From the NCBI GenBank assembly GCA_965153355.1, contig OZ231126.1, positions 10,726,001 through 10,790,000 on the forward strand: a stretch of 64,000 nt of DNA. The letters are read 5' to 3'. How positions within the stretch are numbered: position 1 is the first letter of the stretch; each line of letters begins with the position of its first letter. Position numbers and translations under genes: made by a program. The notes under the pieces were generated by a model that saw nothing but the letters and a program-made list of their open reading frames with translations, did not search any database and was not told where the DNA came from. This stretch comes from Flaccisagitta enflata. Taxonomy: Eukaryota. This document shows, piece after piece, positions 5,377-51,602 of the stretch.

Positions 5377-5695
5377 AGGAAATCATTCATTGCAAAGAAA
5401 ATAACAAATCTACTCCCGACTTTCCAAATGAGCTTCTAAAAAGTCAAGTCAAGTCAAGTCTCAATCCTAGATTACCTTTGATTCTTTTTCTTGCTCACTG
5501 ACTCTCCTCTTGTTCGTTTTTTTTTCTATCCTTGTCTAAAACAAGCCTTAGATTTTTTTTCCACACGCAAAAGCAAGTCTTTAAGAGGTTGTGTCCCTCT
5601 TGAACAGAATATTTCAACCATCTATAACACAAAGCACATAACCTCATGTTGCCATGTTGTTGTGGTTGTTGTGGTTGTTGTGGTAGTTTTTGTCG

Positions 5696-5750
<55 letters not shown>

Positions 5751-5849
5751 GGTTTTTGTGGTTGTTGTGATTGTTGTTGTTGTTGTTGCTGATGTCGTTA
5801 CTGTTGTCTGTGTTGCTGTGGTTGTTGCTGTTGCTGTCATGGTAGTCAC

Positions 5850-7019: not shown

Positions 7020-7475
7020 TTTTGGGCTGCGGCCCCAAAGAGGTCGATTACCTATGCTTTCACACATATGGAAAATTTTCTCCTTCTCCTTCTCCTTCTC
7101 CTTCTTCTTTTCCGTCCCCCCCCCTCAAATCCCAGTCACGAAGCCCAAATCCTCGCCTTGAGGCCCAAATCTTTGTCTCGAAGCCCAAGTACCAGCCTCG
7201 AGGCCCAAATCTAAGCCTCAAGGCCCAAATCCAAGCCTCAAGGCCCAGATCCCAGCCTTGAGGCCCAAATCTCAGCCTTGAGGTCCATACCTCAGCCAAG
7301 AGTCCCAGGTCCCAACCTCAAAAGGAAAAGAAGGAGGAGGAGCAAATTTCCAATATATGTGAAACTTTCACAGCGGCGTATTTGAAGGGGCTTCCGCAGC
7401 TGCCGCGGCAGCTGTTTTATGTCGGACAGGATCGATGTCGGACAGACAGACAAAAGAAAGAAGAAGAAAAAGAAG

Positions 7476-7532
<57 letters not shown>

Positions 7533-7544
7533 AGAGAAAGAGAA

Positions 7545-7575
<31 letters not shown>

Positions 7576-8148
7576 TAGACAGAGCGGTACTCAGGAATCA
7601 AAACTTGGTCATGTCATGTGATTATTCATGATATGCCATAGAGCTATGCCATCAGAGCTCTGATGGAATCCCTCTGTATCATTTTACCATTGTTTTTTTT
7701 TCTTTATTTTGATTTCCGCTAAAATATTTCTGCTAAAATATCCAACGGAAAACGATTTCAGCTTACCCTCATAAGATATATATGAACTTACCCCCATAAG
7801 ATATATATGAACTTATTTACACAATGCAATCTGCAGTACCAAGTTATGTATGGTCATATTTAGTTATATCTAGTAATATATAGTAGTAGATATTCATGTA
7901 TAGTTTTGAATAGAAATATATAATCATATATAGTAATAATTTCTAGTAATATAGGTCGGACAGGAGCTTTGTTGGACATAGATTGGAGGCGGCAGCTGCT
8001 AAAATCTTGGCTCAGATACGCCGCTGTGTGAAATCATAGGTTATCGACCACTTTGGGGCCACTGCCCTGCTTCCCCTTCATTTTCAAGCACAACCTACCT
8101 AGGCAGGGCACGGGTACCGCTGACCATCTGACGCTTTTGCGACTGTTT
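7020..8148. mobile_element. Interspersed element of the GGCCCCAAAG / GGCCCAAAT-satellite family (DINE/SINE-like), interrupted by a CACAGCG element
   Basis: TTTGGGC.GCGGCCCCAAAG start, ~20-bp GGCCCAAATC..AGCCTC repeats and CTTTGGGGCC..GGGTACCGCTGACCAT end. Related copies at ~31855-32365, 49150-49690, 51666-52185 and 55860-56395. Confidence 0.6.
7369..8028. mobile_element. Transib/RAG-like non-autonomous element, copy 1
   Basis: TIR CACAGCGGCGTAT(T/C)TGA at both ends plus a second inverted block GCAGCTGCCGC. TGAAA occurs on both flanks, with 4 extra nt on the left. Confidence 0.7.
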
Positions 8149-8314: not shown

Positions 8315-8440
8315 CACAGCGGCGTATTTGAAGGGGCTTCCGCAGCTGCCGCGGCAGCTGTTTTATGTCGGACAGGATCGATGTCGGACAGACAGACAAA
8401 AGAAAGAAGAAGAAAAAGAAGAAAGAGGAGGAGGAGGAGG

Positions 8441-8497
<57 letters not shown>

Positions 8498-9436
8498 TAG
8501 ACAGAGCGGTACTCAGGAATCAAAACTTGGTCATGTCATGTGATTATTCATGATATGCCATAGAGCTATGCCATCAGAGCTCTGATGGAATCCCTCTGTA
8601 TCATTTTACCAATGTTTTTTTTTCTTTATTTTGATTTCCGCTAAAATATTTCTGCTAAAATATCCAACGGAAAACGATTTCAGCTTACCCTCATAAGATA
8701 TATATGAACTTACCCCCATAAGATATATATGAACTTATTTACACAATGCAATCTGCAGTACCAAGTTATGTATGGTCATATTTAGTTATATCTAGTAATA
8801 TATAGTAGTAGATATTCATGTATAGTTTTGAATAGAACACAGCGCAATCTGTAGTACAAAAAAGTGTCATTAATGCCCCGGGAAAAGCCCCAATGTTCCC
8901 GGTAAAAAAAAGTTAGAGTTTGAATATGCCCGGTTTTATGCCCCGTTAAAAGTTAGTGAAAAAAATGATTCAGGGACTAAACGGGGACTTAACAGGGCAT
9001 ATGCCCCATTTAATTTAATTTTGTTCAATCAAAAATGTTTCTTCAAAAATCAGTAAACCTTTTTTTCAGTGGCTTTCTTCAGGTCGATTTCTATAGTGAA
9101 AATCGTGAGGGACTAAATGGGGACTTAACGGGGCATATGCCCCATTTAGTTTAGAAATGAAGAAAATAAGTTAGTCTAATTGGGGGATTCCCCGGGGAAT
9201 TCCCCAGGATCAAACTCTGATATTTTTAGACTATGCCCGGTTCACTTATGAATAATTGTAACGGGGGAATTCCCAGGGAATTCCCCGGGGCATTAATGTC
9301 ACTACAGATTGCGCTGTGTAGAAATATATAATCATATATAGTAATAATTTCTAGTAATATAGGTCGGACAGGAGCTTTGTTGGACATAGATTGGAGGCGG
9401 CAGCTGCTAAAATCTTGGCTCAGATACGCCGCTGTG
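8315..9436. mobile_element. Transib/RAG-like non-autonomous element, copy 2 (with nested element)
   Basis: Duplicate of 7369-8028 with the same TIRs. Confidence 0.7.
8838..9318. mobile_element. Transib/RAG-like MITE with 5-bp TSD
   Basis: Perfect 18-bp TIR CACAGCGCAATCTGTAGT. TSD TAGAA at 8833-8837 and 9319-9323; the paralogous empty site at ~7911 has a single TAGAA. Confidence 0.9.
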
Positions 9437-9779: not shown

Positions 9780-11520
<1,741 letters not shown>

Positions 11521-44339: not shown

Positions 44340-47300
44340 CTTATTCTGTCTATTTTTGTTCATGTCTCTTGCCTCCTCATGCCTGCTCATGTCTCCTTAT
44401 GTCTCCTTGTGTTTCTTCATGCCTCCTTGTCTCTCTTCATGTCTCCTCATGTTTGGTCAAGTCTCCTCATGTCTCTTTGTGTCCATTCACACCTGCTTAT
44501 ATCTCCTTATTCCTCTTCATGTCTCCCATGTCTCCATGTCTCTTAAAGTTTATTCATGCCCAGGCCTGATTTTAGAGCGAGCCCGCGAGCCCGATGCCCT
44601 CTATTTTGCTCTCGGGCTCTCATGTTTTGCAAGCTCTGAGCCCGGTGGGCTCTCTCTCATTGGGATGGATTCAAAGCGCTGATTGAGAAAAATATTTGGA
44701 AAATAAGCAGGTCTTGAGTCGTTATTTGATTTTTTCATGAATTGAATCATTGTAGTTGTGACTAATATATCATTACATCATAAAACCAGTGGCTGTTGTT
44801 ACAAATTTAGGCTGATATAATGGTAAAATTTGGCACAACGTTTTTTTCCGGGCTCATGCTCTTCCTGTCGGGCTCTGTCAAATTGTGGGGAGCGAGCCCG
44901 ACTGGCTCAGTCAAAGAAATCACTAAAATCAGGCCTGTTCATGCCCCCTCATCTTTCCTCATGTATCCTCATGTCTCATGTCTTTTCATGTCTCTTCATA
45001 TTTCCTTATGTTTCCCATCTCCTCATGTCTCTTTATGTCTCCTTTTGAATCTTCATGTCTCTTCATGTCTCCTCATTTCTTTTCATGTCTTTTCATGTGT
45101 CTTCATGTCTCTTCATGTCTCTTCATGTCTCTTCATGTCTCCTCATGTCTCTTCATGTCTCTTCATATTTTCATGTCTCTTGATGGCTTTTCTTGTCTTT
45201 TTATGTTTCCCATGTCTTCTCCTTTCTATTCATGTCTCCAGATTTCCTTTTTTGTCTTTTCATGTCTCTTTTCATAAAACGACATGGAGGGTCATGAAAA
45301 AAGATGGAGAGACATGAGAAGACAAGAGAAAACATGAAAAGACATGAAGAGACATAAAACAACAGTTTTGCAAATCCTGCGAAGGATTTTTGTGAACATG
45401 AAATTGATGAAGGAGAGGATGGTAAGGTTAGGGTTAGGGTAAGGGTCCATAGCCTGAAATTTTCTAAACACCATTTCTAACATATTCTGTCTATTTCTGT
45501 TCATGTCTCTTGCCTCCTCATGCCTACTCATGTCTCCTCATGTCTCCTTGTGTTTCTTCATGTTTCCTCATGTCTCCTTGTGTCTCTTCATGTCTCCTCA
45601 TATCTGGTCATGTCTCCTCATGACTCTTTGTATCTCCTCATGCCTGCAAATATCTCCTTATTGCTCTTCATGTCTCCCATGTCTTCACGTCTCTTTAAGT
45701 CTATTCATGCCCCCTCATCTCTCCTCATGTATCCTCATGTCTCATGTCTTTTCATGTCTTATCATGTTCCTCCATATTTCCCCATGTTTTTTATTTCACT
45801 TTATGTCTCCTCAAGTCTTTTCATGTCTCCGCATGACTTTTCCTGTCTCTTCATCTCTTCACATGTCTCTCCAAGTTTCCTCATATTTATTCATATTTCA
45901 TCATGTCTTCTCATGTCTCCTCATGTCTCCTCATGTCTTTTCATGTCTCCTCATGTCTCTTTATGTTTCATCCATTCATTTCATGTGTCTTCAAGTCCCG
46001 TCATGTCTCTTGTAGTCTTCTCATGTTCTTCATGTCTCTTCATGTCGCCTTATGTCTCCTCATGTCTCCTCATGTCCTTTTATGTCTCCTCCATTCTTTT
46101 CATGTGTCTTCATGTCCCATCATGTCTCTTGTAGTCTCCTTATGTTTCCTGAAGTCTGTTCGTGTCTTCTCATATTTTTTCTAGTCTTTTCATCTCTCCT
46201 CAAGTCTCCTTATGTTTCCTGAAGTCTTTTCATGTCTCCTCATTTCTTTTCATGTCTTTTCATGTGTCCTTATGTCTCTTCATGTCTCTTCATATTTTTC
46301 ATGTCTCTTCATGTCTTTTCATTTCTTTTCATGTCTCTCATGTCTCTTCATGTCTCTTCATGTCTGTTCTTGTCTTCTCATGTCTTCTCCTGTCAATTCA
46401 TGTCTCCTAATTTTCTTTTATGTCTTTTCATTTCTCTTCATGTCTCTTCATAAAAATACATGGAGGAACATGAAAAGAGATGGAGTGACATGAGAAGACA
46501 AACGGAGACATGAAAAGACATGAAAAGACATGAAGAGACATAAGATGACATGAAAAGACATGAAGAGTCATGAAGAGATATAAACAGACAGGAGGAGATA
46601 TGAAAAGACTTGGAAAGACCTTAGGAGACATGAAGAGACATGAAAGACATAAACAGACATGAGAAGACATAAAAAGAAATAAGGAGACATGGATAGACAT
46701 AAGAAGACATGAAAGACATGAAAAAACAAGAAAAGACATGAAAAGACATGAAAGAACATGAAAAGACATGAAGAGACATGAAGAGACATGAAAAAACTTA
46801 AAGAGACATGAAAAATATGAAGAGACATGAAGAAACATGAAGAAACATGAAGAGACATGAAGAGACATGAGGAGACATGAAGACACATGAAAAGACATAA
46901 AAAGAAATAAGGAGACATGAAGAGACATCAGGAAACATGAGAAGATATGAGGAGACATGAGAAGACATGAAAAGATTTGAAAAGACATGAGGAGACATGA
47001 AGAGACATGAAGAGACATGAAGAGACATGAAGAGACATGAAGAAACATGAGCAGACTACAAGAGACATGAGAGGACATGAAGACACACGAAAAGACATGA
47101 AGAGACATGAGAAGACATGAGCAGACATGAAGAGACATGAAGAGACATAAAAAGATATGAAAAGACATTATACTTCATGGAAAGACAGGAGAGACATGAA
47201 AACACTTGAGGACACATAAGTAGACATGAAGAGACATGATGAGACACAAAGTGATATAAAAGACATGAAAAGACATGAAAAGTCATAAGAAATGAGGAGA

Positions 47301-47495
47301 CATAAAAAAACATGAGAAGACATGAAGCGACTTGAAAAGAAAGAAAGAGACATGAAAATACATGAAAAAACATGAGGAGACATGAATAATGATGAGGAGA
47401 CATGAAGAGACCTCAGAAGACATGAGAAGACATGAAGAGACATGAGAAGACATGAAGAGACATGAGAAGACATGAAGAAACATGAGAAGACATAG
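44340..47495. repeat. 10-bp CATGTCTC(C/T)T minisatellite that switches orientation at ~45280 and ~46455; resumes at 50760-51440
   Basis: CATGTCTCTT units to the left of the axis and GAGACATGAA units to the right. Confidence 0.95.
44561..44937. mobile_element. hAT-type MITE
   Basis: Perfect 15-bp TIR CAGGCCTGATTTTAG, exact 8-bp TSD TTCATGCC and GAGCCCG subterminal repeats. The paralogous site at ~45704 is empty. Confidence 0.92.
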
Positions 47496-50754: not shown

Positions 50755-51602
50755 ATAGAGAGACGTGAAAAGACATAAGAAGACATGAAAAACATAAAGA
50801 GACATGAGGAAACATGAGGAGACATAAGGAGACATGAAGGGACATGAAAAGAAATAAAACAACATAAAGAGACATGAAAACACATGAAGAGACATGGGGA
50901 GACAAGAGGAGACAAGAGGAGACATGGAAGTTTATGTGGAGACATAAATCATGAAAACAGATGTGGAGACATAAGGAGACGTGAAATGACATGAAGAGAC
51001 ATAAACAGTAATGAATAGACATAAAGGGATAAGAAGAGACATAAGGAGACATTAGGACACATGGAAAGACATAAAGATCCCTTCATCACTTACAATCTTT
51101 CCCTGTAGTCTTCTGAGGAAAAGGTGTATGCAATCCTACACAGCTAAATGCACCTAGGCTACACACAGACTTTGATTTTCTAAGATCAAAAAAATTCCAT
51201 TTCTTTTTCTCTCCCTTTCTCTTTCTTCAAGACAACAGCCTGGCCTCACATGCTTGACTCGATCAAGAGAGAGGGAGACATGAAGAGGAATAAGGAGATA
51301 TTAGCAGGTGTGAGGAGATACCAAGAGACATGACCAGACATAACCAGACATGAGGAGACATGAAGAGAGACAAGGAGACATGAAGAATTACAAGAAAACA
51401 TAAGGAGACATGAGTAGGCATAAGGAGACAAGAGACATGAACAGAAATTGACAAAATATGTTAGAAATGGTGTTTAGAAAATTTTGGACTATGGACCCTA
51501 ACCCTAACCCTACCGTCCTCTCCTTCATCATGTTCATGTTCACAAAAAATCTATCTCAGGATTAGTGAAACTGAAAAGACGAACCGATGGCGATGATTCT
51601 TT

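What the first reader, a model, noticed from the sequence alone, without database searches (positions are those of the whole stretch)
8838..9318. RSS-like MITE with bipartite ends differing by exactly 10 bp (12/23-rule-like asymmetry)
Seen: the left end is CACAGCG-CAATCTGTAGT-ACAAAAAAGT-GTCATTAATGCCCCGGG and the right end (reverse complement) is CACAGCG-CAATCTGTAGT-GACATTAATGCCCCGGG. The inner block is offset by 10 bp, about one helical turn. The left end reads heptamer CACAGCG (6/7 to CACAGTG), 11-nt spacer, ACAAAAAAG (7/9 to ACAAAAACC). The 5-bp TSD is demonstrated by the empty paralogous site in the adjacent duplication, so the insertion is recent. Known: Transib and RAG-like/ProtoRAG transposons have CAC-heptamer ends and 5-bp TSDs, and ProtoRAG ends are asymmetric. 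Inference: a recently active Transib/RAG-like transposase with asymmetric end recognition exists in this genome.
Basis: partly seen in the sequence, partly recalled or inferred. Interest (0 to 1): 0.8.

Follow-up and report, generated by a model that had tools for sequence, protein, structure and literature searches.

The report
RAG-clan MITE with asymmetric ends
This is a small non-coding jumping element of the Transib/RAG clan, present in hundreds of copies, whose two ends differ by one DNA turn, a known design; the same genome also holds unusual complete RAG1/RAG2-like transposons with the two genes in tandem.

Summary
Window 8838-9318 is a 481-bp non-coding element with a TAGAA duplication and an empty site at 7911-7915. 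It belongs to a family of roughly 300 or more copies. The 10-bp offset is fixed: the inner block starts at nt 29/19 in 54 of 55 elements measured, across subfamilies 79-98% identical that carry seven different insert sequences. 44 of 55 have an exact 5-bp TSD.

The RSS reading needs correcting. The nonamer-like ACAAAAAAG lies on one end only and is the spacer insert; the block shared by both ends is GACATTAA, the same block at the same 10-bp offset as in a published Mnemiopsis Transib. 12/23-like non-autonomous Transibs are in print since 2005, so this is a new member of a known kind.

No autonomous element with these ends was found. The genome does hold complete Transibs with their own 10-bp-offset ends, and two complete RAG2L-RAG1L transposons (TIRs, 5-bp TSD, 9-10-bp offset) with tandem genes, a GRPK motif, no CCHC tail and a third unknown gene. 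I found tandem order described only for a protist. That side finding is the more interesting lead.

The parts
8838..9318 (+). 481-bp non-autonomous element (MITE), main subfamily (consensus 483 bp)
8833..8837 (+). left copy of 5-bp target site duplication TAGAA
9319..9323 (+). right copy of TSD TAGAA
8838..8855 (+). long end: heptamer CACAGCG plus 11 shared bases (18-bp perfect terminal repeat)
8856..8865 (+). 10-bp spacer insert, long end only; begins with an A-tract kept in all subfamilies, last four bases vary
8866..8882 (+). long end inner block (family consensus starts GACATTAA; this copy has T at 8867), nt 29 onward
9301..9318 (-). short end: same 18-bp terminal repeat
9284..9300 (-). 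short end inner block, nt 19 onward
8972..9153 (+). two internal 46-bp direct repeats (8972-9017, 9108-9153), 93% alike; shorter subfamilies join near them
9182..9289 (+). two internal 27-bp G/C-run palindromic repeats near the short end
7911..7915 (+). empty site (single TAGAA) in the upstream tandem duplicate
8317..9434 (+). host repeat interrupted by the element; ends CAGCGGCGTAT (hAT-like, label recalled); high-copy
7371..8026 (+). uninterrupted copy of the host repeat in the tandem duplicate (period about 946 bp)

Best explanation
A non-autonomous cut-and-paste transposon (MITE) of the Transib/RAG clan, most likely moved in trans by a Subgroup I-type Transib transposase. Each end is bipartite: an outer 18 bp that starts with the CAC heptamer, where cleavage occurs, and an inner block (GACATTAA...) 11 bp after the heptamer on one end and 21 bp after it on the other. 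The extra 10 bp keep the inner block on the same helical face, so a transposase dimer with a flexibly linked NBD-like domain can hold one short and one long end, cut, and insert with a 5-bp stagger. Shown: ends, TSD, family, fixed offset, presence of clan transposases in the genome. Inferred: the identity of the enzyme, protein binding to the inner block, and any requirement for a short/long pair.
For: CAC ends and exact 5-bp TSD in 44 of 55 elements, against 8 of 4909 random flank pairings. Offset 29/19 in 54 of 55, with seven insert sequences of equal length in subfamilies 79-98% identical; 23 substitutions and no indel in nt 8-28 of six subfamily comparisons, where the interior indel rate would give about 5 (rough, comparisons share branches). 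The published MleTransib_2823 has heptamer CACAGTG and the same TGACATTAA 9-mer, with GACATTAA at nt 20 and 30 (counted by me from the supplement text of PMC9435367); its protein carries the CCHC tail that paper gives for Subgroup I. G000 is rich in such Transibs: 89 matches, ten loci at 90% identity or more, eight of these without a stop in the match; best PDB hit HzTransib, E 8e-10. Two complete ones have 5-bp TSDs and their own blocks at 13/23 and 17/27.
Against: No autonomous element with these ends was found. None of 256 exact long-end sites lies nearer than about 60 kb to a transposase match (compared by eye); four longer copies on C1 (1087, 1200, 2213, 3458 bp) hold nested repeats and no transposase frame. 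TSDs are not GC-rich (0.42 against 0.39 in flanks), unlike the preference reported for Transib and RAG (PMC1131882, PMC10629977), although six TSDs of complete clan elements in G000 are alike in this (13 of 30 bases G/C). 3 of 55 TSDs are 4 bp. The match to the Mnemiopsis block is one 9-mer from one family.
Confidence: 0.7

Rival explanations
1. The family derives from a RAGL (RAG1L+RAG2L) transposon and is moved by such an enzyme, perhaps a relative of the tandem RAG2L-RAG1L lineage in this genome.
For: Two complete RAGL transposons with 9-10-bp offset ends and 5-bp TSDs are in G000; non-autonomous RAGL elements are known (PMC7204232 passages); heptamer + conserved adjacent bases + 10-bp asymmetric spacer is the P. 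flava RAGL-A design (PMC10629977 passages).
Against: The RAGL ends found share only the heptamer with the MITE; no MITE end within 15-20 kb of the three RAGL loci; the inner block matches a Transib, not these RAGLs.
Confidence: 0.2
2. The 10-bp difference is a neutral indel in the founder, copied through the family without function.
For: All copies descend from one ancestor; one copy has an 11-bp insert; BbeRAGL cleavage relies mostly on the terminal 15-17 bp (PMC7204232 passage), and here the terminal 18 bp are symmetric.
Against: Insert sequence drifted while length held; unrelated ends in this genome (13/23, 17/27, 14/24) and in ctenophore Transibs (20/30; 17/27 in two more, counted) show the same offset.
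Confidence: 0.1
3. The element belongs to another superfamily with CAC ends, such as Chapaev (4-bp TSD; recalled, no call).
For: 3 of 55 elements have a 4-bp TSD and targets are not GC-rich.
Against: 49 of 55 have a 5-bp TSD with at most one mismatch; PMC1131882 gives the 5-bp TSD as distinctive for Transib; block match to a Transib TIR.
Confidence: 0.05

Closest known systems
Subgroup I Transib, especially MleTransib_2823 of Mnemiopsis leidyi (PMC9435367, whole text and parts of the supplement)
   Same: CAC heptamer, bipartite TIR, inner block GACATTAA, 10-bp offset between the ends
   Different: block at nt 19/29 rather than 20/30; heptamer CACAGCG; first 18 bp identical on both ends; no coding sequence
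Non-autonomous TransibN1-3_AG, Transib5, Transib2_AG (PMC1131882, passages)
   Same: non-autonomous or autonomous Transibs whose two ends resemble RSS12 and RSS23; 5-bp TSD
   Different: those carry an A-rich nonamer-like block on both ends and prefer GC-rich targets; here the shared block is not A-rich and targets are at background GC
Ptychodera flava RAGL-A TIRs (PMC10629977, passages)
   Same: heptamer, conserved bases next to it, spacer with 10-bp length asymmetry, 5-bp TSD
   Different: [quoted passage not shown]
Vertebrate 12RSS/23RSS
   Same: 6 of 7 heptamer bases; second block one helical turn apart between partners
   Different: spacers 11/21 (difference 10) rather than 12/23; no nonamer on the short end; a transposon end, not a gene-segment signal
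AanRAGL of Aureococcus (PMC9435367), for the side finding
   Same: RAG2L upstream of RAG1L in the same direction, asymmetric TIRs, 5-bp TSD
   Different: the G000 elements sit in an animal-type genome, are 13-14 kb, lack the CCHC tail that AanRAG1L has, and carry a third gene

Membership tests
Transib/RAG clan, non-autonomous element | termini begin with CAC in an RSS-like heptamer | tested here: met
   CACAGCG on both ends; 451 exact 18-mers in G000
Transib/RAG clan, non-autonomous element | 5-bp target site duplication | tested here: met
   44 of 55 exact, 5 with one mismatch, 3 of 4 bp, 3 none; empty site
Transib/RAG clan, non-autonomous element | dispersed multicopy family without coding capacity | tested here: met
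   445 candidates on all nine contigs; no frame of 150 aa over it
Transib/RAG clan, non-autonomous element | autonomous partner with the same ends encodes a Transib or RAG1L transposase | tested here: inconclusive
   clan transposases abundant, none found with these ends; lists cover exact matches only and 88 of 124 candidates were scored
Transib (typical, not defining) | GC-rich target preference | tested here: not met
   TSD GC 0.42 against flank 0.39; complete clan elements of G000 similar
Subgroup I Transib | asymmetric bipartite TIR pair | tested here: met
   29/19 in 54 of 55; block shared with MleTransib_2823
Subgroup I Transib | transposase with CTT1 tail and alpha11-12 region | not testable with these tools
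   cognate transposase not identified
12/23 RSS pair | nonamer on both partners | tested here: not met
   7/9 at spacer 11 on the long end; at most 2/9 at spacers 21-24 on the short end
12/23 RSS pair | spacers 12+-1 and 23+-1 | tested here: not met
   shared block at spacers 11 and 21
12/23 RSS pair | cleavage only of a short/long pair | not testable with these tools
   needs biochemistry
RAGL transposon (side finding, G000:C4:29916443-29930648 and C8:38372833-38385758) | RAG1L with DDE triad plus kelch-PHD RAG2L between CAC TIRs and 5-bp TSD | tested here: met
   RAG1L to BbeRAG1L 6b40 E 1e-28; RAG2L profile to BbeRAG2L E 1e-10, Atlas RAG2 clusters 0.95; TIR+TSD; D, D, E motifs present
RAGL transposon (side finding) | convergent gene order and CCHC C-terminal tail of typical invertebrate RAGL | tested here: not met
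   tandem order at 3 of 3 loci; in-frame stop after the core and no CCHC motif downstream in any forward frame

The most novel reading that the evidence does not exclude
This genome carries an undescribed lineage of RAG2L-RAG1L transposons with tandem gene order, a third gene with a signal-peptide-like start, a GRPK nonamer-binding motif and no CCHC tail, whose ends, like those of the MITE and of the Subgroup I Transibs beside them, differ by one helical turn. Lacking the tail that lets amphioxus RAGL ignore asymmetry, its enzyme would depend on the NBD and enforce a short/long pairing rule as vertebrate RAG does, reached independently or kept from an ancient ancestor. (That the MITE itself is a substrate of this enzyme I put at only about 0.1.)
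Probability: 0.3. Interest if true: 0.8.

Novelty: new member of a known kind. Interest (0 to 1): 0.45.

Why it matters
For the MITE alone: modest. It adds a natural mutational series (hundreds of copies, at least seven spacer sequences of one length) showing that length, not sequence, of the spacer difference is kept, which bears on whether the one-turn asymmetry of V(D)J signals predates RAG. The larger value is the genome: several Transib families with different blocks but the same 10-bp offset, and intact-looking tandem RAG2L-RAG1L transposons without the CCHC tail, give ready enzyme/end pairs to test when asymmetric end pairing became obligatory.

Tried and rejected
Search for the autonomous partner, all negative: PF12940 in G000 gave 2 loci without these ends within 20 kb; protein searches gave three RAGL loci and many Transibs, and the flanks examined showed other ends. 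Twenty Transib loci were not read with wide flanks; for them only the position lists of exact long ends apply. The 600-bp interior of the 1087-bp copy is another repeat (933 candidates, TTAA-flanked). The excess of short-type ends is explained by older subfamilies with a changed long end, not by symmetric elements. The CACAATG look-alike at 7820 and 8742 is internal to the host repeat, not a terminus. A degenerate end pattern in metagenome contigs gave 1 hit (L198) with no inner block and no transposase: uninformative. AlphaFold model of RAG2L had mean pLDDT 35.6 and was not used. The third RAGL gene had no Pfam, Atlas or homolog hit. A maximum-likelihood tree did not finish; the FastTree (35 rows, rows under 500 aa left out except one 350-aa own fragment) separates own Transibs from RAG1L and puts own RAG1L on a long branch outside the named echinoderm and amphioxus RAG1L, with no vertebrate RAG1 or AanRAG1L in it, so family placement is open. 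Single-strand folding (z -10.6) only reflects the TIRs. Earlier scan notes: nothing found. No complex prediction was run.

Full report
1. Observation. The element is at window 8838-9318 (G000:C1:10734838-10735318). Both ends share 18 identical bases starting CACAGCG; the left end then has 10 extra bases before a block that follows directly on the right end. TAGAA flanks both sides, and the upstream tandem duplicate has one TAGAA at 7911-7915 and lacks exactly 486 bp. The target is itself a high-copy repeat with CAGCGGCGTAT ends (1889 candidates). The source is a microsatellite-rich 794-Mb genome in nine contigs; its lineage was not established.

2. Family. A DNA search gave 445 candidates, 40 scored, 94-96% identical. 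The terminal 18-mer occurs 451 times exactly, the reversed control never. Exact long-type ends number 79+39+39 plus 99 of older subfamilies, so about 300 elements is a lower bound. I measured 55 distinct elements from 57 loci: the 30 best hits, 12 chosen for unusual length, and 15 regions chosen for unpaired or odd ends; one pair with identical flanks was counted once and two loci gave no paired end. The inner block starts at nt 29 on one end and nt 19 on the other in 54 of 55 and at 30/19 in one. Lengths run from 299 to 1087 bp, identity to the main subfamily from 79 to 98%, and seven insert sequences occur (plus two private variants), all starting with an A-tract and varying in the last four bases. 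Between subfamily representatives nt 8-28 took 23 substitutions and no indel, where the interior rate would give about 5 (rough). TSDs: 44 exact 5 bp, 5 with one mismatch, 3 of 4 bp, 3 none; random pairings match in 8 of 4909; GC 0.42 against 0.39 in flanks. In public runs, one contig of an RNA library (X8) spans the whole element with 13 differences and 2 gaps, no 10-base loss at the insert is listed in the four runs laid, and the empty-site joint appears in X1 and X2; X1 may be the assembly's own sample, the joint may come from other copies of the host repeat, and transcription is not shown.

3. What the ends are. The element shared by both ends is GACATTAA..., 11 and 21 bp after the heptamer. 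In the supplement of PMC9435367 (parts 4 and 5 and TIR passages 1-50 of 56 read; its alignment figures are images I could not see) MleTransib_2823 has CACAGTG ends with the same TGACATTAA 9-mer, GACATTAA at nt 20 and 30 by my count; MleTransib_3931 and PbaTransib_0868 have another block at 17/27. The main text (whole text read) states that all Subgroup I Transibs have asymmetric TIRs. PMC1131882 (passages) already describes non-autonomous TransibN1-3_AG with RSS12/RSS23-like ends, the 5-bp TSD as distinctive, and a GC-rich target preference. PMC10629977 (passages) reports a 10-bp asymmetry in P. flava RAGL-A and that the NBD pivots to accept 12/23 ends; PMC8289069 (passages) reports 27/31-bp spacers for ProtoRAG; PMC7204232 (passages) reports non-autonomous RAGL elements; PMC4411706 (passages) notes that autonomous Transibs are usually in one or few copies. 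Supplements of the last five were not read and may list similar ends.

4. Search for the enzyme. G000 holds many Transibs (89 matches; ten loci at 90% or more to a 771-aa frame), nearest solved relative HzTransib. Complete elements with 5-bp TSDs: C4:63558230-63564613 (block at 13/23, A-tract after 12 and 22 bp, a closer RSS mimic than the MITE), C9:40554286-40559685 (17/27), and a symmetric one at C2:86887154-86891760. None has the MITE's ends. None of the 256 exact long ends lies within about 60 kb of a transposase match (lists compared by eye), and four long copies on C1 are nested insertions without transposase. The cognate may be absent from this assembly, broken by introns beyond detection, or have ends with substitutions; the test is inconclusive, not negative.

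5. Mechanism. Best reading (0.7): cut-and-paste movement in trans by a Subgroup I-type Transib dimer that cuts at the CAC heptamer, binds the inner block through an NBD-like domain, and accepts or needs one short and one long end a helical turn apart, inserting with a 5-bp stagger. Ends, TSD, offset and the presence of such enzymes are shown; enzyme identity, binding and pairing rule are inferred from RAG and Transib knowledge. Rivals: RAGL-driven (0.2), neutral founder indel (0.1, a separate axis), another CAC superfamily (0.05). On age: copies are 1.0-3.5% from the consensus of the 30 best hits; the empty duplicate differs by under 1%, which fits a late move of an already diverged copy or unequal crossover between filled and empty alleles.

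6. Side finding. Three loci carry an unknown gene, a kelch-PHD RAG2L and a RING-bearing RAG1L on one strand in that order (C3:97.71, C4:29.92, C8:38.38 Mb). RAG1L matches BbeRAG1L at E 1e-28; the RAG2L profile matches BbeRAG2L at E 1e-10 and RAG2 clusters at 0.95. Two loci are complete transposons: C8:38372833-38385758 (TSD CAAAA, block at 14/24, RAG1L frameshifted) and C4:29916443-29930648 (TSD TCTTT, offset 9-10, RAG2L and RAG1L frames open, third gene frameshifted); no TIR pair was found at C3. C4 and C8 have GRPK, C3 does not; all three, and three public relatives (P0017-P0019), stop right after the core without the CCHC tail. Only one cysteine aligns with the CxxC zinc pair. The third gene is homologous between C3 and C8 (E 1e-11) and has no database hit. 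I found tandem order described only for Aureococcus (PMC9435367); searches showed no animal case, but the library lacks most subscription journals.

7. Verdict. Interest 0.45, lifted by the natural spacer series and by the tandem RAGL lineage beside it, which deserves its own follow-up.

Noticed in passing
G000:C4:29916443-29930648 (L093-L094, L132); G000:C8:38372833-38385758 (L097-L098, L134); G000:C3:97.706-97.712 Mb (L133): Tandem ORF-X, RAG2L, RAG1L cassettes; two with TIRs, 5-bp TSD and 9-10-bp offset ends; RAG1L lacks the CCHC tail, GRPK in two of three
   Followed up: partly
L134:7048-7542 (-) and L133:6611-7132 (-): Third gene inside the RAGL transposons, hydrophobic signal-peptide-like start, conserved cysteines, no Pfam, Atlas or homolog hit
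   Followed up: partly
G000:C4:63558230-63564613 and nine loci at 90% or more: Young 771-aa Transib family; ends with A-tract 12 and 22 bp after the heptamer; long tandem arrays of TIR-like units at the 3' end
   Followed up: partly
G000:C9:40554286-40559685 (L180); G000:C2:86887154-86891760 (L170): Complete Transibs with 17/27 offset ends and with symmetric ends, both with 5-bp TSD
   Followed up: partly
L166, L167, L169, L173, L175, L178: Intron-containing Transib families; L173 has a tandem array of about 110-bp units each starting with CACAGTG upstream of the gene, L164 a similar array
   Followed up: no
G000:C6:12746544-12747683 (L031): 380-aa RAG1-like frame with CCHC tail and acidic end, no TIR found within 20 kb, long branch in the tree; possibly domesticated or an exon of a larger gene
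   Followed up: partly
L195, L196, L197: Copies of this MITE inserted into or beside other copies of itself
   Followed up: partly
window 7371-8026 and 8317-9434: Host repeat with hAT-like ends (label recalled), no TSD found, in a tandem duplication of about 946 bp; an internal stretch at 7820 and 8742 resembles the MITE terminus at 15 of 18 bases, more than in most other copies
   Followed up: partly
L100:1670-2265: TTAA-flanked 600-bp repeat family (933 candidates) nested in one MITE copy
   Followed up: no
window 44955-47311 and 51275-51512: 10-bp-period satellite in both orientations forming long imperfect inverted repeats
   Followed up: no
window 5655-5847 and 10412-10604: 193-bp inverted pair, 94% complementary, in CAA/TTG-rich sequence 4.6 kb apart around the locus
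   Followed up: no
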